Source: Dehalococcoidia bacterium
GTDB lineage: Bacteria; Chloroflexota; Dehalococcoidia; UBA2979
Direction: 5' to 3'
Assembly (NCBI GenBank): GCA_965262725.1
Contig: OZ253555.1
Location: forward strand, 2,944,001-3,008,000
Length of the DNA: 64,000 bases
Under the pieces are notes generated by a model. It saw only the letters and a list, made by a program, of their open reading frames with translations. It made no database searches and was not told the DNA's origin. The translations under genes were made by a program, and so were the position numbers. Positions 27,894-35,802 of the stretch are shown here, one piece after another; within the stretch, counting starts at the first letter, position 1, and the number at the start of each line of letters is the position of its first letter.

Positions 27894-28050
27894 TGTGAAT
27901 CGCCAGGATCTATAGACCAGCAAACGGCGAGATCGCCAGGGTCTATGTGCCACTTCGCCAAGGTCATTGAGCCACCCCTCCGGGGGGTCTGACCACTCGG
28001 GCCGCCGGTACGGCCACCATCGCCTGCATCCCCAGCGGAGGGGAGCAGCG

Positions 28051-29631
28051 ATGGCCTACCGGGAGGTACACGGGGTGGAGATCCAGGAGATCATTCGTCG
28101 CTGGCAGGCGGGGCTCAGCCAGCGCCGCATCGCCAGCGGGATGGGGTTGTCGCGTCAGACGGTCCGCCGCTACATCGACGCGGCCGAAGCGGCCGGCCTC
28201 ACACCTGACGGTCCCGAGCCGAGTGAGGAGCAGCTCGCCGCGCTGGCGACGCTGAGCCTCTCCGGCCCGCGGCAGGTCGAGGCGCCGAGCGAGGAGCTGC
28301 TCTCGCCCTGGGCGGAGCAGATCGAGCGCTGGCTTGAGACCGACCGCCTGCAACTGACGCGCATCCAGGAGCTCCTCGCCGGACGAGGCTGCGAGGTCTC
28401 CTACACCACGCTGCGGCGTTTCATCCGGCGCCGCGGCTGGCGCCACCGGCTGCCGTCGACCGTGCGCATGGACGACGGGCCGCCGGGCGAGGTGGCGGAG
28501 ATGGACTTCGGCCGCCTCGGCTTCATCCGGGACCCCGAGAGCGGCCGCCGGCGCGCGGTGTGGGCGCTGGTCGTCGTCTGGCGCTACTCACGCCACTGCT
28601 TTGTGTGGCCCACCACCAGCCAGAAGCTGGACGCTGTGATCGAGGGCCTGGAGGAGGCCTGGGCCTTCTTCGGGGGAGTGCCCCGCTACCTCGTCATCGA
28701 TAACTTCCCGGCCGCCGTCGCCGGGGCCGACGCGCTGCACCCGCGCTTCACGCGGGGCTTCCTCGAGTACGCCCGCCACCGCGGCTTCATCACCGACCCC
28801 GCGCGCGTGCGTCATCCCCGCGACAAGCCGCGCGTCGAGCGCAGCATCCCCTACGTGCGCGAGCGCCTCTTCAAGGGCGGCGACTTCCGGGACGTCGTCG
28901 ACCTGCGCTCCGCCGCCCGCAGCTGGTGCCTGGAGGTGGCGGGACAGCGCATCCACGGCACGACACGCCGGCGCCCGCTCGAGGTCTTCCGGGAGGAGGA
29001 GCTCCCTCTCCTCGCTCCCTGGGACGGCGAGCCCTACGAGGTCCCCGACTGGCGGACCGCCACGGTCCATCCCGACCACCACATCGCCTGCCAGTACGCG
29101 CTGTACTCGGTGCCGTCCACGGCCTGCCCGCCCCGCCAGAAGGTCGAGGTGCAGCTCGGCTCGAAGCTGGTGCGCATCTACCACCGCGGTCAGCTCATCA
29201 AGGTCCACCCGCGCCAGCGCCGGGGCGGCCGGGCCACCGACCCGAACGACTACCCGGCCGAGCTCACCCCCTACACCAGGCGGGCGCCCGACTGGATACA
29301 GCGCCGCGCCGCCGAGCTGGGGGAGGCCGTGGGCGCCTACGCCGAGCGTCTCTTCGAGGGCTCCCTGCCCTGGGCGAAGCTGCGGCAGGGCCACAAGCTG
29401 CTGCGCCTCGCCGAGCGCTACTCCCCGGACCGCCTCGACGCCGCCTGCCGCCGCGCGCTCGAGGTCGACCTCATCGACGTGCGCCGCCTCGAGCGCATCC
29501 TCGTCGAGGCCCTCGACCAGGAGAGCACCCCAGACCAGCCCGAGCTGCCGCCGCCTCCGGGGCGCTTCGCCCACTCGGGCTCCGTCTTCGCACAGTCCCG
29601 CACGCAGACCCCGACAGGAGCACCACGATGA
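28051..29631 (+). CDS. istA: IS21 transposase
   Basis: N-terminal HTH; DDE motifs EMDFG, VIDN, KPRVER. Confidence 0.93.
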   Translation: MAYREVHGVEIQEIIRRWQAGLSQRRIASGMGLSRQTVRRYIDAAEAAGLTPDGPEPSEEQLAALATLSLSGPRQVEAPSEELLSPWAEQIERWLETDRLQLTRIQELLAGRGCEVSYTTLRRFIRRRGWRHRLPSTVRMDDGPPGEVAEMDFGRLGFIRDPESGRRRAVWALVVVWRYSRHCFVWPTTSQKLDAVIEGLEEAWAFFGGVPRYLVIDNFPAAVAGADALHPRFTRGFLEYARHRGFITDPARVRHPRDKPRVERSIPYVRERLFKGGDFRDVVDLRSAARSWCLEVAGQRIHGTTRRRPLEVFREEELPLLAPWDGEPYEVPDWRTATVHPDHHIACQYALYSVPSTACPPRQKVEVQLGSKLVRIYHRGQLIKVHPRQRRGGRATDPNDYPAELTPYTRRAPDWIQRRAAELGEAVGAYAERLFEGSLPWAKLRQGHKLLRLAERYSPDRLDAACRRALEVDLIDVRRLERILVEALDQESTPDQPELPPPPGRFAHSGSVFAQSRTQTPTGAPR

Positions 29632-30401
29632 CCGCCACCACCTCAGACCTCCGTCCGCTGCTCAAGCGCCTCAAGCTCGGCCGTATGCTCGACACCCTGC
29701 CCGAGCGCATCGCCCTCGCGCGGCGCGACCACCTCGACTACGCGGACTTCCTGCAGATCCTGCTCGTCGACGAGGTGAGCCGCCGCGACCACGGGCGGTT
29801 GGAGCTGCGCCTGCGCCAGGCCGGCTTCGAGCAGCTCTGCCGCCTCGAGGACTTCGACTGGGCGGCCGCCATCCGGCTCGACCGCCGCCTGCTCGACGCC
29901 GCCTTCTCGCTGCACTTCCTCGATCGCCGCGAGCACGTCCTGCTCGTCGGCCCCGTCGGCGTCGGCAAGAGCTTCTTAGCCCAGGCGCTCGGCTACTCAG
30001 CCGTCCGCTCCGGACGCAGCGTCCGCTTCGCCCCGGCCGACCACTACTTCCGCGAGATGGCGCAGGCCCGCGTCGACCACTCGGCCGAGAAGGTCTTTCG
30101 AAGCTTCCTCGCGCCCGACCTGCTCATCCTCGACGACCTCGGGCTCCATCGCCTCAGCGCGCAGCAGTCCATCGACCTCTACGAGCTGGTCATCGGGCGC
30201 CACCGCAGCTCCAGCTTCGTCATCACCTCGAACCGCGCCGTAGAGGAATGGCTGGGTCTCTTCGACGACCCGATCCTCGGCAACAGCGCCCTCGACCGCC
30301 TCGCCAACGCCAGCTACCAGATCGTGATCGAGGGCGATAGCTACCGCCAGCGGCTCTCGCCGCACCGCGCCCTGCTCGAGGCGCAGACGGGAGGTGATTG
30401 A
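29628..30401 (+). CDS. istB: IS21 helper ATPase
   Basis: GPVGVGKS, LILDDLG, ITSNR, ALDRL; ATGA overlap with istA. Confidence 0.94.
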   Translation: MTATTSDLRPLLKRLKLGRMLDTLPERIALARRDHLDYADFLQILLVDEVSRRDHGRLELRLRQAGFEQLCRLEDFDWAAAIRLDRRLLDAAFSLHFLDRREHVLLVGPVGVGKSFLAQALGYSAVRSGRSVRFAPADHYFREMAQARVDHSAEKVFRSFLAPDLLILDDLGLHRLSAQQSIDLYELVIGRHRSSSFVITSNRAVEEWLGLFDDPILGNSALDRLANASYQIVIEGDSYRQRLSPHRALLEAQTGGD

Positions 30402-30490
30402 CGCGCTAGTGTCCTGATTCGTAATAGCGACAGATAACGGGTATGGTGGCACAGCGGGGTTTTGCCCCATGGGGCAGACTCTGGAGTGTC

Positions 30491-33400
30491 ATGAGCACCC
30501 GAATCGGACGGCCGACGGTCGCGATCGTCCTGAGCGACGAGGAGCGTGAGACGCTGGAGCGGTGGGCGCGCCGGCCGACATCGGCCCAGGCGCTGGCGCT
30601 GCGCTGTCGCATCGTCCTGGCAGCGGCCGAGGGGACATCGAATAAAGCGATCGCCGCGGCGCTCGATTGCCATCCGGTCACCGTCGGCAAGTGGCGCCGG
30701 CGCTTTGCGCAGGGGCGGCTCGATGGGCTACAGGATGAGCCGCGCCCCGGGGCGCCGCGCACGATCGCCGATGCACAGGTGGAAGCGGTGATCGTCACGA
30801 CGCTGGAGGAGCAGCCTCCCAACGCGACGCACTGGTCGACCCGATCGATGGCAGCCGCGGTCGGGATGTCGCAGTCGGCGATCTTCAGGATCTGGCGCGC
30901 CTTCGGCCTGAAGCCGCACCTCGTGGAGAGCTTCAAGCTGTCGCCCGACCCGCAGTTCATCGACAAGGTGCGCGACGTGGCCGGGCTCTATCTCAACCCG
31001 CCCGACGCGGCGGTTGTGCTGTGCGTGGACGAGAAGACCCAGATCCAGGCACTCGACCGCACCGCGCCGACGGTGCCGATGATGCCCGGCGTCCCCGCCC
31101 GCCAGACGCACGACTACATCCGTCACGGCACGACGAACCTCTACGCGGCGCTCGATGTCGCCTCGGGATGCGTGATCACGGAGATGACCCCCCGGCACCG
31201 GGCTCGGGAGTTCCAGCAGTTCCTCGCCCTCATCGACCAAAGCGTTCCCCGTGAGCTGGCGGTGCATGTCGTGCTCGACAACGTCTCCACGCACCGCACG
31301 CCCGCCATCCAGCGCTGGCTCCAGCGCCATCCCCGCTTCACCTTCCATTTCACGCCGACCTACAGCTCCTGGATGAACCTCGTGGAGCGCTGGTTTGCAG
31401 AGCTCACCAGCAAGTGGCTCCGGCGCGGCACGCACCATAGCGTCCCTGATCTGATCCGCTCAGTGGAGATGTGGGTCGCCAGCTGGAACGAGAATCCGAG
31501 GCCCTTCATCTGGCACAAGTCCGCGGACCAGATCCTTGAGTAGGGTCAGGGGCTGGCGCGGTGCGAGCCGTAGGCGGTGGCGCATATTGCCAGGCCGGTT
31601 TCCCGGTGGCGCCCATCTCCACAGCCGTAGCATCGTCCGTCTCCAGCCCCTGCCGCCTCGAACCGGACGTGAGGTTTTCCCTCATCCGGCTCACCGATGC
31701 CCTTCACCGGGCGGCATGCGGGGTGCCCCGCCACGGTCGATATGGCCGTGGTGCCACGACGCGCTGTCCAGCTAGCGAGATGAGCCCCAGACGGTCGGCG
31801 ACGGGAAACGGGTGCCCGCGATGGCGTCGCCGCCAACGCAACCGCTTCCCCAGCCAGAGTTTGAGTCTCCACATGGCAAACCAGTGCAGGACGTCGAACG
31901 CCCTCGCCGAGTTGCCGTAGCGGAAGTAGCTCATCCAGCCGCGGAGGTAGCGATTGACTTCCTCCACGACCTGCCGGGGACTCAGCAGCAGACGCAACCG
32001 CGCCGTGATTTCACGGATGCGGTCCCGCGCCCGCTGCATCGCTCGCCGTGAGGGCCAGCGTGCGAGGAACTGGATATTCTTGTTGCGCTTCGCACGTACC
32101 CAGCGATGCTCGAAGCCGAGGAACTCCAGCCCCTCGCCTCCCTCCCGCAGGTGCACGATGCGCGTCTTCTCCGCCTTGAGCTCCAGTCCGAGCTCACCCA
32201 GCAGGTCACGCAGCAGGGCCAACGCCCGCTCCGCTTCCTCCCGGCTCCGGCAGAGCACCACGAGGTCATCCGCATAGCGCACCAGCACGCCATCACCCTT
32301 CGCCTCCCAGTCCCGGTCCAACCGGTGCAGGTAGACATTGGCCAGCAGCGGGGACATCACCCCGCCCTGCGGCGTACCCGTCGCGCTGTGCTGCACGACC
32401 CCCGACTCCATCACACCGGCACGCAGCATCGCCCGTACCAGCTTCAGGAGATTGCGGTCGCATATCCGTTCCTCGACGGCCGTCATCAGACGGTCGTGTA
32501 GGGTCAGGGGCTGGCGCGGTGCGAGCCGTAGGCGGTGGCGCATCAGTTCCAAGCCGGTTTCCCGGTGGTGCCCAACTCCACGGCCATAGCAGCGTCCGTC
32601 TCCAGCCCCTGCCACATCGAACCGGACGTGAGGTTCTCCCTCATCCGGCTCACCGATGCCCTTCACCAGATGGCATGCAGCGCTCCCCACAACGTGGGTC
32701 GTGCCTTGGCCAGCCGGTACAGCATGTGCGGAGAGCCTCGAACCCTACCAAGTGGTTGCTAGCCCCGAGGGGCACTCACCAGTCCACACCCCCAGCAACA
32801 TGCACGGACAAAGTAGGGGTCCTTCCCATCACCGGCGGTTATGTTGTCCGTCCGGCTCCAGCGGTACTACGACCCCCTCCGCCACCCTTCCGGCTGGCTG
32901 TCCACTTCCCGGCTCTGACCGGTTATAGGACGCCTCGCTCCGACGCCCTCTCACAGGGTGCCGGGCCGGGGAGGGCTTCTCCGGTTCCCGTCGCTACCTT
33001 CCGTACGTTCCACGTCCCATACGCCGGGAGGTTTCTTGAGGCTGCATTCCAGGATCTTCACCTCGTCCATGGCCTTCGCCCTGACCACCCGGGCTCGGCT
33101 CCTCCTTGGTCCTGTCAATAGACAGGCGAGTCTCACGGCGCGGCAGACTTCGCGTCATGCTGCGGACCGCACGTTTGCTCCCCCTCATAGGGCTCTTGAC
33201 GTCGGGCTTCGACGCAGACCGTTTCCCGTCCACGCCGCCGACCTGCTAACGGGCCTCCTGACAGTTACCCGTGCCGGACTCTCACCGGCTGGCAGCAACG
33301 AGCATGTCTCCGGACCGGTCACGTCATCACGTCACCACCCCTTCGACTTCCGGACGCACGCGGTATCGACTCGAAACACGAGGCGATGTCCGTCTCCACT

Positions 33401-34521
33401 ACCCACCGCCTGCCCCGCCACGCCTCGTCAATGAGGACCTGCAGGGCGTCATGGGCCGAACGCTTCGGGCGGAAGCCGAAGCTGCATGGCAGGAAGTCGG
33501 CCTCGAAGACCGGCTCCGTCACGAGCTTCAGCGACGCCTGCACGATGCGGTCGCGGACCGAAGGAATCGAGAGCGGGCGCTCTTCCGACCGACCGGGCTT
33601 GGGTATCCAGACCCGGCGGCTCGGCTGCACCCGGTATCTTCCCTCCTTCAGTTCCGTGGCCAGTTCATCCAGCAGGCGCTCCACGCCGTAGCGCTCGACC
33701 TCGGCGAGCGTGACGCCGTCGATACCGGCTGCGCCGCGATTGCGACGCACCTGCTCCCACGCGCGCTCCAGAATGTCTCTGCGATAAACCTTGTCGTAGA
33801 GCGCATGAAAGCGTCTATTGGGGTCGGCCTTGGCCGCCCGGTAAAGCGTGCGTTGTAGTGTTCGGACCTTGTCTTGGATGGAGTTAGCCGCTTGGGCACT
33901 CACCGATTCATCCCTACTCCCCACGCGTGAGCAAAGCAGGGGTCCTTCCCATCACCGGCGGTTGTGTTGTCCGTCCGGCTCAAGCGGTACTACGACCCCC
34001 TCCGTCACCCTTCCGGCTAGCTGCCCACTTCCCGGCTTTGACCGGTTATAGGGCACCTCGCTCCGACACCATCTCGCAGGGTGCCGGGCCGGGGAGGGCT
34101 TCTCCCGTTCCCGTCGCTACCTTCCAAACGTTCCACGCCCCTTACGCCGGGAGGTTCCTTGAGGCTGCAGCGCAACGCGCATTCAGGATCTTCACCTCGT
34201 CCATGGCCTTCGCCCTGAATTGCCGGGCTCGGCTCCTCCACTATCCGTTAACGACGCGGCAGGCTTCGCTTGATGCTGCGGACCGCCTGGTTGCTCCCCC
34301 TGATAGGGCTCTTGACGTCGGGCTTCGACGTGGACCGTTTCCCGTCCGCGCCGCCGACCTGCTAACGGGCCTCCTGACAGTTACCCGTGCCGGACTCGCA
34401 CCGGCTGGCAACGACGAGCATGTCTCCAGACCGGTTACGTCATCACGTCACCCGCCCTTCGACTTCGGGACACACCAACCTCACCGGATATCTCAATCGC
34501 ATTTCCAATTCAGGACACTAG
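30491..34521 (+). CDS. IS630 transposase, split: join(30491..31539,34476..34521), 364 aa
   Basis: CVDEK, VLDN, SWMNLVERWF; removing 31540-34475 gives ...ADQIL-D-NLTGYLNRISNSGH*. Confidence 0.92.
31704..33903 (-). CDS. ltrA: Group II intron RT/maturase, no En domain, split: join(33903..33360,32497..31704), 445 aa
   Basis: RRFHALYDKV, GAAGIDG, IPKPG, RDRIVQ, SFGFRP, DIASCFESIP|HDRL, GTPQGG, YADD, FLGF, domain X GWMSYF. Confidence 0.93.
32498..33359 (-). mobile_element. Inner ORF-less group II intron (862 nt)
   Basis: 5' GTGCG, 3' CCCTAC; domain V at 32619-32651; domains I-III closely similar to the outer intron; removal restores the RT frame. Confidence 0.93.
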
Positions 34522-35802
34522 CAGGGTGCTGAAGAAGCTCCTTCCGGGGGCCTCGGAGCGGTGCCGGGCGGCTTGAGAGGCCACGTCCGGCTTCGTGATC
34601 GCCGTCTCCTGACCTGCCCCCGGCGGCCTCGGAGGGCTCCTGGACCGGCCGTAGGGCGCAGTGCGCCCTACGCCGTGGCAGCCTCGAGCCTGGCCATGCG
34701 CACCAGGTTGTAGGCGGCGGCGGTGAGCTCCAGCCAGCAGCGGTTGCGCTCGCGGCCCACGAAGCGCAGCTTGCGCCCGCCGCCCACGGTCTTCATCCAG
34801 CCGAAGACCTGCTCCACGATCGTGCGTCGCTTCTGACTCTGCCTGTAGCCGCGATGCCGCGTGGTGCGCCCGTCCACGGCGCTGCGGCGGCGGCGATCGT
34901 GCTGCGCCACGCCGCGCCCGCGCAGTTCCGCCACGAAGTCGCGCGTGTCGTAGCCGCGGTCGGCGCCCAGCGTCCCGCAGCCGCTCACGCTGCGCTCCAG
35001 CATCGTGACCGCCGCCTCGCGCTCGGCGTACCCGTTCGCCTCGGTCAGCTCCAGGTCCAGCACCAGACCATGACGGTTCTCGGTGAGCAGGTGGCCCATG
35101 TAGCTCAGTCTCGCCGTCTGCCCCGACCCTTTCGTGTACAGCCGCGCCTGCGGGTCCGTGCCGGAACTATGCGTATCGCGGCGGCGGCGCCGCCCCCGGA
35201 AGTCGACCTCCGGGTTGCGCCCGCCCGGGGGTGTCCTGCTCGTCGCGCGGGCGGTAGCTCTTGAGCGAGGCCCAGGCCTCCAGCAGCGTCCCGTCCACGG
35301 TGAAGTGGTCGGCGGAGAGCAGCCGACGCCGCCTGGCCTCGGCCACCACCTCGGCGAAGAAGGCGCGCGCGACATCGGCAGCGAGCAGGCGCTCGCGATT
35401 CTTCGAGAAGCTGGAGGCGTCGAACGGCTCGTCTGAGATGTTGAGGTCGAGGAACCACTTGAACAGCAGGTCGTAGCGCAGCCGCTCGCAGAACTGGCGC
35501 TCGCTGCGGATCGAGTAGAGCGCGATCAGCAGGCTCGCCTTGAGCAGGTGCTCGGGCGGGATCGAGGGCCGGCCGCTCTTGCTGTACATCGTGCCGAACA
35601 GCGGTGAGAGCCGCTGCAGCGCGGAATCGACGATCGGTTTGATGCGGCGGATCGGGTGGTCGTCCGGGATGAAGGCGTCCGGCGTCACCGCCAGCAACAT
35701 GTTGGTCTGACGCTCAGCGTCGCCTCGCATGGGGCGCCTCCAGGCTACGCCCCCGCCGCCTTCGCTATCCTGCCAGACGGCTGACCCTTTTTCAGCACCC
35801 TG
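34522..35802 (-). mobile_element. IS5-family element with frameshifted transposase (35730->34668)
   Basis: IRs CAGGGTGCTGAA flanked by CTAG direct repeats; GRPSIPPE, RSERQF, VDGT, ADRGY, IVEQVFGWMK; frameshift near 35225. Confidence 0.88.

What the first reader, a model, noticed from the sequence alone, without database searches (positions are those of the whole stretch)
33019..34222. Target-recognition sites of the two introns co-vary with their insertion sites
In the same hairpin loop, the outer intron has EBS1 CAAUU (34222-34218), pairing with its 5' exon end GGUUG. The inner intron has GUGGU (33088-33084), pairing with its exon end ACCGC. At the putative EBS3 position (GGCGUA-N-GGG), the outer has A (34142) opposite 3'-exon U, and the inner has U (33019) opposite 3'-exon A. 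This supports genuine retrohoming and shows the inner intron retargeted to a conserved RT-coding motif. It is a natural pair of guide-reprogrammed ribozymes.
Basis: partly seen in the sequence, partly recalled or inferred. Interest (0 to 1): 0.7.

Follow-up and report, generated by a model that had tools for sequence, protein, structure and literature searches.

The report
Nested self-splicing introns with matched guides

Summary
On the minus strand, a 2,936-nt group II intron (34475..31540) lies in the end of an insertion-sequence transposase gene. It carries an 862-nt ORF-less sister intron (33359..32498) inside its reverse-transcriptase (RT) gene.

- **Structure:** It puts the EBS3 base in a 3x3 internal loop, the coordination loop typical of IIB-like introns.
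- **EBS3:** This column forms a Watson-Crick pair with the first 3'-exon base in 13 of 13 lineages. It is the only one of 198 columns to do so.
- **EBS1:** It pairs with the 5' exon at 59 of 65 positions.
- **EBS2:**
- **Insertion sites:** The genome holds 28 identical inner copies at 14 distinct sites, and all fit the guides.
- **Empty sites:** Thirteen empty transposase sites confirm the outer boundaries.
- **RT genes:** All 15 cognate RT genes in the genome are split by the inner intron.

Close precedents exist in Thermosynechococcus elongatus and Methanosarcina acetivorans. Splicing was not shown, because no informative RNA data were found. Verdict: correct, a new member of a known kind, moderate interest.

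The parts
31540..34475 (-). Outer group II intron, 2,936 nt including the inner intron. It starts GUGUG and ends ...GACCCUAC.
   Evidence: Thirteen empty transposase sites join the flanks exactly. There are 12 copies in the genome.
32498..33359 (-). Inner ORF-less group II intron, 862 nt. It starts GUGCG and ends ...GACCCUAC.
   Evidence: There are 28 copies at 100% identity. Relatives' RT genes are contiguous across the site.
34218..34222 (-). Outer EBS1, CAAUU, in a terminal hairpin loop.
   Evidence: Columns 91-95 of alignment A3.
34476..34480 (-). Outer IBS1, GGUUG, the last 5 bases of the 5' exon.
   Evidence: 5 of 5 pairs, 2 of them G-U.
34242..34247 (-). Outer EBS2, CGGAUA, in the bulge 5' of the EBS1 arm.
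   Evidence: a 6-bp run with exon positions -15..-10.
34485..34490 (-). Outer IBS2, UAUCCG.
34142..34142 (-). Outer EBS3 (A), on the 3' strand of the coordination loop.
   Evidence: Column 173 of A3.
31539..31539 (-). Outer IBS3 (U), the first base of the 3' exon.
33084..33088 (-). Inner EBS1, GUGGU.
33360..33364 (-). Inner IBS1, ACCGC.
33127..33132 (-). Inner EBS2, GACUCG.
   Evidence: 6 of 6 pairs with exon positions -14..-9. The site consensus is T-CGAG at -15..-11.
33368..33373 (-). Inner IBS2, CGAGUC. T-15 lies at 33374.
33019..33019 (-). Inner EBS3 (U).
32497..32497 (-). Inner IBS3 (A).
34258..34258 (-). Outer delta' candidate (C, 5' strand of the coordination loop). It pairs with delta, G at 34223, next to EBS1.
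   Evidence: Columns 37 and 90 of A3: C-G in 15 rows and A-U in 2. The pair is reversed to G/C in Streptomyces relatives (read by eye).
33361..33909 (-). RT gene, 5' part. It ends ...FESIP plus the first base of the His codon at 33360.
   Evidence: RVT_1 profile positions 1-83.
31704..32497 (-). RT gene, 3' part: the rest of the RT domain and the maturase domain. No endonuclease domain was found.
   Evidence: RVT_1 positions 90-204 and GIIM.
31627..31694 (-). Domain V and the start of domain VI of the outer intron. The bulged branch-point A candidate is at 31546.
   Evidence: RF00029, 41.5 bits. Domain VI was read.
30406..34521 (+). Host insertion sequence with a DDE_3 transposase. The ORF runs 30443-31539 and continues after the intron at 34476. 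The outer intron lies antisense in its 3' end.
   Evidence: Terminal inverted repeats were read by eye.

Best explanation
This is a bacterial twintron made of two sister group II introns with IIB-like RNA and an RT/maturase that lacks an endonuclease domain.

- **How each intron finds its site:** Each recognises its DNA or RNA target by base pairing through three guides. EBS2 pairs with about -14..-9, EBS1 with -5..-1, and the single-base EBS3 with +1. A delta-delta' pair holds the EBS1 loop next to EBS3 in the coordination loop.
- **Outer intron:** Its guides direct it into the 3' end of an IS630-like transposase gene, in antisense orientation.
- **Inner intron:** It is an ORF-deleted derivative of an outer-like ancestor. 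Its three guides have changed so that it homes into the RT-coding sequence FESIP|HDRLM of its relatives.
- **Dependence:** The inner intron has no RT of its own, so it must be mobilised in trans. The cognate RT can be translated only after the inner intron has spliced out of the outer intron's RNA.

Shown here: the anatomy, the guide-to-flank complementarity, the structural position of the guides, many independent insertion sites, empty sites, and the replication-orientation bias. Inferred: actual splicing, which protein mobilises the inner intron, and current activity.
For: **Family membership.** Rfam RF02003 matches both introns (102.8 and 93.7 bits) and RF00029 matches the outer domain V/VI. 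Pfam finds RVT_1 and GIIM in the two RT halves.

**Structure.**
- The consensus of 17 introns places EBS1 in a terminal loop and EBS3 in a 3x3 internal loop.
- 96.9% of cells are paired, against 34.6-39.9% with slid partners. 26 of 44 pairs have compensatory changes, and 0 of 500 shuffles reach the observed covariation.

**Guides across lineages.**
- EBS1-IBS1 pairs at 59 of 65 positions in 13 lineages. Permutations give a mean of 28.9 and a maximum of 47.
- EBS3-IBS3 is Watson-Crick in 13 of 13 lineages, with three pair types. It is the top column of 198; the next best pairs in 9.
- It also holds in 6 of 6 held-out actinobacterial plasmid introns from 3 lineages (read by eye).
- EBS2: summed longest runs are 75, against a permutation mean of 53.9, and 0 of 5,000 permutations reach 75.

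**Inner intron sites.** Of 14 distinct sites, EBS1 pairs 5 of 5 at 10, EBS2 pairs at least 5 of 6 at 12, and +1 pairs with U at 11.

**Empty sites.** Thirteen for the outer intron, and relatives' contiguous RT genes for the inner.

**Replication orientation.**
- 11 of 12 non-RT inner sites are co-oriented with the fork (p = 0.003).
- 10 of 12 occupied transposase sites are co-oriented, against 5 of 13 empty ones (Fisher p = 0.041).
- This fits the replication-fork priming described for endonuclease-less introns (PMC4424553, passage read).

**T at -15.** It is present in 11 of 13 lineages' targets. The same position is critical for RmInt1 (PMC4075523, passages read).
Against: - Single-sequence minimum-energy folds of the EBS region do not reproduce the model and are no more stable than shuffles (z = -0.28 and -0.83). 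The structure therefore rests on covariation only.
- No spliced or ligated-exon junction for the inner intron was seen in the four public runs laid. Those runs are contigs only, and the one RNA contig covers 263 nt of inner domain I.
- Several relatives have 1-2 mismatches at -4 or -5 (fam3, L002, L005, L018).
- Three of the 14 inner sites do not pair at +1.
- The lineages compared are kin, so counts overstate the number of independent events.
- I placed the relatives' boundaries myself, from the GUGYG motif and the end of domain VI.
Confidence: 0.9

Rival explanations
1. The 12 twintron copies multiplied passively. They were carried by transposition of the host insertion sequence, or spread as composite units, rather than by separate homing of each intron. 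The guide-to-flank match at these copies would then be inherited from one event.
For: All 12 outer copies sit at the same position of one transposase family, and all carry the inner intron at the same site. Outer copies are 99.8-100% identical and inner copies 100% identical, so the order of events cannot be read from divergence. Composite mobility of twintrons is considered possible in T. elongatus (PMC2882425, passage read).
Against: - The inner intron also occupies 12 unrelated sites and the RT genes of a second intron lineage that is 79-82% identical, so it moves on its own.
- The outer intron sits in at least three diverged variants of the transposase end.
- Occupancy depends on orientation to the replication fork: 10 of 12 occupied sites against 5 of 13 empty ones. 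Transposition of the host element would not predict this.
Confidence: 0.3
2. The family is now dead. By splitting every cognate RT gene, the inner intron has cut off its own RT supply. The identical copies would be the trace of a recent burst that has ended.
For: 15 of 15 cognate RT genes (12 outer, 3 fam3) are interrupted at the same codon. The only contiguous group II RT genes, 12 of them, belong to another family at 36-46% identity. No joint across the inner intron was seen in public contigs.
Against: The 28 copies at 100% identity argue for very recent activity. The inner ribozyme keeps the GUGCG start, domain V and the bulged A. Splicing would restore an in-frame His codon and the motif FESIPHD seen in relatives.
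Confidence: 0.15
3. The 3' exon is recognised by another base, for example the neighbouring base at 34141/33018 or a IIA-type delta base next to EBS1, and the A/U difference at 34142/33019 is incidental.
For: Only two states (A:U and U:A) are seen inside this window itself.
Against: Column 173 pairs with +1 in 13 of 13 lineages. Its neighbour, column 174, pairs in 2 of 13, and no other column exceeds 9 of 13. The base 5' of EBS1 (column 90) instead co-varies with column 37 of the internal loop.
Confidence: 0.02

Closest known systems
Thermosynechococcus elongatus TeI3/TeI4 introns (Mohr, Ghanem and Lambowitz 2010, PMC2882425; passages read)
   Same: - One intron lineage proliferated in one genome.
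- Families differ in EBS sequences that retarget them.
- ORF-less derivatives with one shared deletion are mobilised in trans and outnumber ORF-containing copies.
- ORF-less introns sit inside ORF-containing ones as twintrons.
- Some copies insert into insertion sequences.
- Inner copies are identical.
   Different: - In T. elongatus the IEPs carry D and En domains, and the closest relative is EcI5. Here no En domain is found.
- There the inner intron sits between the first two ATGs and can be bypassed, and two introns keep continuous ORFs. Here it splits the RT domain itself, and 15 of 15 cognate RT genes are split.
- The hosts differ: a cyanobacterium there, and here a GC-rich genome whose nearest relatives found are Dehalococcoidia MAGs.
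Methanosarcina acetivorans nested introns (Dai and Zimmerly 2003, as summarised in PMC4424553 and PMC2882425; passages read, original paper not seen)
   Same: Repeated site-specific homing of ORF-less and RT-encoding introns into related group II introns, giving nested arrays. A three-level nest also exists in this genome.
   Different: Those are archaeal, with up to five levels and no coding exons around them. The details of their target motifs were not available to me.
RmInt1 of Sinorhizobium meliloti (class D; PMC4075523, passages read)
   Same: - An endonuclease-less RT/maturase.
- The natural home is an insertion sequence (the ISRm2011-2 name is partly recalled).
- EBS1, EBS2 and single-base EBS3 recognition.
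- A critical T at -15 just upstream of IBS2. Here T-15 is present in 11 of 13 lineages and in 10 of 13 inner sites.
- Use of the replication fork.
   Different: Membership in class D is not shown. The best plasmid-borne RT matches are Streptomyces (61%) and Rhodococcus jostii RHA1 (56%), not Sinorhizobium. RmInt1 is not reported as a twintron in the passages I read.
Variety g1 of endonuclease-less introns (Rh.js.I1, Ca.ac.I1; Toro and Martinez-Abarca 2013, PMC3552965; passages read, supplementary tables closed)
   Same: The RT lacks D/En. The 263-aa C-terminal part, including the maturase domain and its extension, aligns end to end at 56% identity with an RT on R. jostii RHA1 plasmid pRHL1.
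   Different: That the pRHL1 intron is Rh.js.I1 is my inference from the name. No phylogeny was run. The supplementary tables that list accessions could not be opened.
Trichodesmium group II twintron (PMC4649490; search listing and abstract only)
   Same: A bacterial twintron for which sequential splicing was examined.
   Different: It is a different intron class and host, and I read only the abstract.

Membership tests
Group II intron (ribozyme) | 5' GUGYG start; domain V; bulged A in domain VI a few bases from a 3' end in AY | tested here: met
   GUGUG and GUGCG starts, and ...CUG-A-CCCUAC ends. RF02003 matches both introns and RF00029 matches the outer domain V/VI. The inner domain V is identical to the outer at all but one aligned position.
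Group II intron, IIB-like exon recognition | EBS1 in a terminal loop of domain I pairing with the last bases of the 5' exon | tested here: met
   59 of 65 pairs in 13 lineages.
Group II intron, IIB-like exon recognition | EBS2 pairing with the exon stretch upstream of IBS1 (absent in IIC) | tested here: met
   runs of 4 to 7 bp per lineage, 5 bp or longer in 12 of 13, mostly at -14..-9. 0 of 5,000 permutations reach the observed sum.
Group II intron, IIB-like exon recognition | Single-base EBS3 in an internal (coordination) loop pairing with +1, together with a delta-delta' pair between the base next to EBS1 and that loop | tested here: met
   EBS3 pairs in 13 of 13 lineages and in 6 of 6 held-out introns. 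Delta-delta' is C-G in 15 rows and A-U in 2. The canonical layout of the loop is recalled from the literature, not compared with a reference structure.
Mobile group II intron (retroelement) | RT plus maturase ORF in domain IV | tested here: met
   RVT_1 and GIIM. The ORF is split by the inner intron and is in frame once the inner intron is removed.
Endonuclease-less intron classes (A, C, D, E, F, g1-g4) | No D/En domain after the maturase domain | tested here: met
   Pfam finds only RVT_1 and GIIM in the C-terminal 263 aa. The tail after GIIM is about 40 aa.
ORF class g1 or class D | Placement in the class clade by RT/X-domain phylogeny; class-specific C-terminal signature | not tested
   Only a 56% match to an R. 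jostii RHA1 RT and the shared T-15. No reference set was at hand, and the supplementary tables were closed.
Twintron | A complete intron inserted inside another, with exact boundaries | tested here: met
Twintron | Sequential splicing of the inner and then the outer intron | not testable with these tools
   Only contigs of public runs were available, and no joint was seen.

The most novel reading that the evidence does not exclude
Every cognate RT/maturase gene in this genome (15 of 15) is split inside its RT domain by the ORF-less intron. The family therefore faces a bootstrapping loop: no RT or maturase without inner-intron splicing, and possibly no efficient inner-intron splicing without maturase. 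Three escapes are possible.
- The inner intron self-splices in vivo.
- It borrows the maturase of the unrelated RF02005-type family.
- It is helped by a truncated product. An open frame (31704-32690) runs from the inner intron's 3' part into the RT4-7 and maturase portion.

Any of these would make a hyperparasite-gated, possibly bistable, switch on intron mobility.
Probability: 0.25. Interest if true: 0.6.

Novelty: new member of a known kind. Interest (0 to 1): 0.35.

Why it matters
- **A clean natural experiment in RNA-guided targeting.** Three sister ribozymes in one genome share about 80-90% of their sequence but carry different EBS1, EBS2 and EBS3. One of them has 14 independent insertion sites that display its targeting rules, including a protein-read T at -15.
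- **Possible practical use.** These rules could help design targetrons from an endonuclease-less intron family found in GC-rich bacteria.
- **An extreme case of a parasite of a parasite.** The ORF-less intron has invaded every RT gene it depends on.

None of this changes current understanding of group II introns. It extends known behaviour to a new lineage and host.

Tried and rejected
- **Single-sequence folding** of the 178-nt and 185-nt EBS regions gave other structures and z-scores of -0.28 and -0.83. It is no use as support.
- **Public sequencing runs.** 20 of the 24 runs listed hold the stretch or a part of it. The four runs laid gave contigs only. No contig joined across the inner or outer intron. 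One RNA-library contig covers 32946-33208, and DNA carry-over cannot be excluded. One contig shows the empty transposase site, but the genome also holds that as DNA. Nothing can be said about splicing.
- **Neighbouring base as delta' or a +2 reader.** The base next to EBS3 (column 174) pairs with +1 in 2 of 13 lineages. By eye it does not pair consistently with +2. Rejected.
- **A 3' extension after domain VI**, as in B.c.I4. Rejected. The long 3' region is an insertion inside a long domain VI stem, and the bulged A lies 7 nt from the end (read by eye).
- **Automatic boundary calling by regular expressions** failed for several relatives. I redid it and completed it by eye.
- **Rows dropped from the EBS counts:**
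  - L008: no boundaries found.
  - L012: ambiguous 5' start, 3' end outside the locus.
  - L013 and L003: 3' end outside the locus, so used for EBS1 only.
  - L001: 5' part replaced, so used for EBS3 only.
  - L009: only 1 exon base at the contig edge, so used for EBS3 only.
  - L004, L006 and L010: no domain I in the locus.
- **Earlier scan notes** for this genome concerned other elements and did not bear on this finding.
- **Paper PMC2525955** (Simon et al. 2008) is not held.
Full report
**Anatomy**

Reading the minus strand, an intron starts with GUGUG at 34475 and ends ...CCUGACCCUAC at 31540. Inside its reading frame, a second intron starts with GUGCG at 33359 and ends with the same 3' sequence at 32498.

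- Rfam's group II model RF02003 matches both introns (34407-34271 at 93.7 bits; 33291-33155 at 102.8 bits). RF00029 matches domain V/VI of the outer intron.
- The two ribozymes align with 91% (5' part) and 93% (3' part) mean column identity. Identity is 89.6% over domain I in ungapped columns.
- The inner intron has lost the ORF. The outer ORF is split as ...FESIP | H DRLM.... Its halves match Pfam RVT_1 positions 1-83, and positions 90-204 plus the maturase domain GIIM. No endonuclease domain was found.
- The outer intron lies antisense in the 3' end of a DDE_3 (IS630-like) transposase gene.

**Check of the observation**

The boundaries are independently fixed in two ways.

- Thirteen intron-less copies of the same transposase end in this genome read straight through the outer junction.
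- Uninterrupted RT genes of relatives read FESI[PS]HD across the inner junction, with 2 mismatches to the inner target.

**Copies in the genome**

The window lies in a 3.67-Mb single-contig genome. It holds the following.

- 12 outer copies, at 99.8-100% identity.
- 28 inner copies, at 100% identity.
- A third lineage, fam3, at 79-82% identity, with 3 full copies and one fragment.

The inner intron is distributed as follows.

- It sits in the RT site of all 12 outer copies, once as a tandem pair.
- It sits in the homologous RT site of all 3 fam3 copies.
- It sits at 12 other, unrelated sites.

All 15 cognate RT genes are therefore split. Twelve contiguous group II RT genes belong to a different family at 36-46% identity. 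That family is of the RF02005 type.

**Natural experiment on the inner intron**

The test covers 14 distinct sites, counting the two RT sites once each.

| Guide | Observed | Random genome position |
|---|---|---|
| EBS1 (GUGGU) | 5 of 5 pairs at 10 sites, 4 of 5 at 4 sites | P(5 of 5) = 0.036 |
| EBS2 (GACUCG, 33132-33127) | at least 5 of 6 pairs at 12 sites | 0.16, best of six offsets |
| +1 opposite EBS3 (U) | A at 9 sites, G at 2, C or T at 3 | not applicable |

The site consensus is T(-15) CGAG (-14..-11) ... CYGC (-4..-1) A(+1).

**Structure**

I aligned the EBS region of 17 introns.

- Outer, inner and fam3 from this genome.
- Five from the related-loci search: four from two Dehalococcoidia MAGs (L001-L003) and one from a Frankiaceae MAG (L005).

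RNAalifold and pair counts give the following model.

- Two stacked basal helices.
- A 4-bp helix (columns 31-34 with 175-178).
- A 3x3 internal loop (columns 35-37 and 172-174).
- A 6-bp helix.
- A bulge that carries EBS2.
- A 5-bp helix.
- The EBS1 hairpin, whose terminal loop holds columns 89-97.

On this model 96.9% of cells are paired, against 34.6-39.9% when partners are slid by 1-3 columns. 26 of 44 pairs show compensatory changes. 0 of 500 shuffles reach the observed covariation.

The base 5' of EBS1 (column 90) co-varies with column 37 of the internal loop: C-G in 15 rows and A-U in 2. I read this as delta-delta'.

Against the model, single-sequence minimum-energy folds do not reproduce it and are no better than shuffles.

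**Guides against exons across lineages**

I placed boundaries by the GUGYG start and the conserved end of domain VI.

- EBS1 pairs with -1..-5 at 59 of 65 positions in 13 lineages. Permuted exons give a mean of 28.9 and a maximum of 47, and 0 of 20,000 reach 59.
- Column 173 forms a Watson-Crick pair with +1 in 13 of 13 lineages (A:U, U:A and G:C). Permuted exons give a mean of 4.4 and a maximum of 11.
- Column 173 is the only one of 198 columns above 9 of 13. Its neighbours score 0 to 5.
- EBS2 runs also exceed all 5,000 permutations.
- One of the 13 lineages (L016) comes from a genome flagged as unpublished (G344). Without it the EBS3 count is 12 of 12, and I expect the other results to be essentially unchanged, though I did not re-run the permutations.
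- As a held-out check, six introns on actinobacterial plasmids (three lineages) all pair at this position (A:T, T:A and G:C, read by eye). The Streptomyces members reverse the delta-delta' pair.

Rows I dropped are listed under Tried and rejected.

**Mobility mechanism**

- Cumulative GC skew has its minimum near 0.40 Mb and its maximum near 2.51 Mb.
- Eleven of 12 non-RT inner sites are co-oriented with fork movement (p = 0.003).
- Ten of 12 occupied transposase sites are co-oriented, against 5 of 13 empty ones (Fisher p = 0.041).
- This fits the replication-fork priming described for endonuclease-less introns (PMC4424553, passage read). It argues against passive spread by the host element alone.
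- A caveat is that gene orientation also follows replication, and I did not separate the two effects.
- T at -15, just upstream of IBS2, is present in 11 of 13 lineages' targets and in 10 of 13 inner sites. In RmInt1 the same position is the critical protein-read base (PMC4075523, passages read).

**Comparison with known systems**

- The T. elongatus introns show the same set of behaviours: divergence of EBS families, a single ORF deletion followed by trans-mobilisation, twintrons with identical inner copies, and insertion into IS elements (PMC2882425, passages read).
- Methanosarcina shows homing into related introns (PMC4424553, passage read).
- The differences here are an endonuclease-less RT, an insertion point inside the RT domain rather than upstream of a second start codon, and invasion of every cognate RT gene.
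- The nearest plasmid-borne RTs are from Streptomyces (61%) and Rhodococcus jostii RHA1 (56% end to end). The latter may be Rh.js.I1 of variety g1 (PMC3552965, passages read). That link is my inference, and the class remains untested.

**What is not shown**

Splicing, lariat formation, the identity of the mobilising protein and present-day activity are not shown. Public runs that hold the sequence are available only as contigs and show no joint.

**Verdict**

The observation and its interpretation hold, and they extend to EBS2 and delta-delta'. This is a well-resolved new member of a known kind.

Noticed in passing
L037 (G000:C1:732500-737600), about 732582-737446: Three-level nesting. A fam3 intron contains the inner ORF-less intron in its RT site, and that inner copy is itself interrupted by an intron of another family (RF02005 type, 152.6 bits) with a contiguous RT.
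   Followed up: partly
G000:C1:549500-551223: Two inner-intron copies lie head to tail in one outer RT site. The 5' exon of the second copy is the 3' end of the first, so this is not a guide-directed site. It may have arisen by recombination or template switching.
   Followed up: no
G000 genome-wide (for example C1:1850342, 2476554, 3505816); L001/L003/L006 near 5310 or 7725; G000:C1:1875220: A second group II intron family has 13 RT loci at 36-46% identity to the outer RT, 12 of them contiguous. In the Dehalococcoidia relatives it is inserted inside domain V of the outer-type intron. In one fam3 fragment it sits right after the GGCGUAAG coordination-loop motif.
   Followed up: partly
window 31540-31660 and 32498-32617 (minus strand): Domain VI is a long stem with an internal insertion of about 85 nt (GGAGACGG...CACCGCGCCAG). 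Shorter versions of it are conserved in relatives, including those on actinobacterial plasmids. This is unusual for domain VI, and its function is unknown.
   Followed up: no
window 31704-32690 (minus strand): An open frame of 328 codons starts inside the inner intron's 3' part and runs in frame into the RT4-7 and maturase part of the outer ORF. It may be chance in GC-rich DNA, or a route to a truncated maturase without splicing.
   Followed up: no
window 27967-30401 (+) and 34668-35730 (-): The twintron-bearing element is flanked by an IS21-like pair of genes (a long transposase ORF, then an ATPase-like ORF). On the other side is a transposase-like gene in two overlapping frames, apparently frameshifted. 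The region is a pile-up of mobile elements.
   Followed up: no
G000 whole genome: Intron orientation switches at about 0.41-0.54 Mb and 2.54-2.56 Mb, matching the extremes of cumulative GC skew (0.40 and 2.51 Mb). The exceptions are the twintrons at 1453961 (-) and 3118904 (+).
   Followed up: yes
L040 and L043 (Streptomyces plasmids), intron 5' ends: These relatives appear to begin GCGCG instead of GUGYG, while keeping EBS1 and EBS3 complementarity to their flanks. The intron on Rhodococcus sp. WAY2 (L041) appears to begin GUAUG.
   Followed up: no
This may be an ectopic or rearranged site.
   Followed up: no
runs X1 and X5: Contig depth over inner-intron segments is about 2.5 to 4.5 times that over outer-only segments. 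This agrees with the 28:12 copy ratio in the assembled genome.
   Followed up: no
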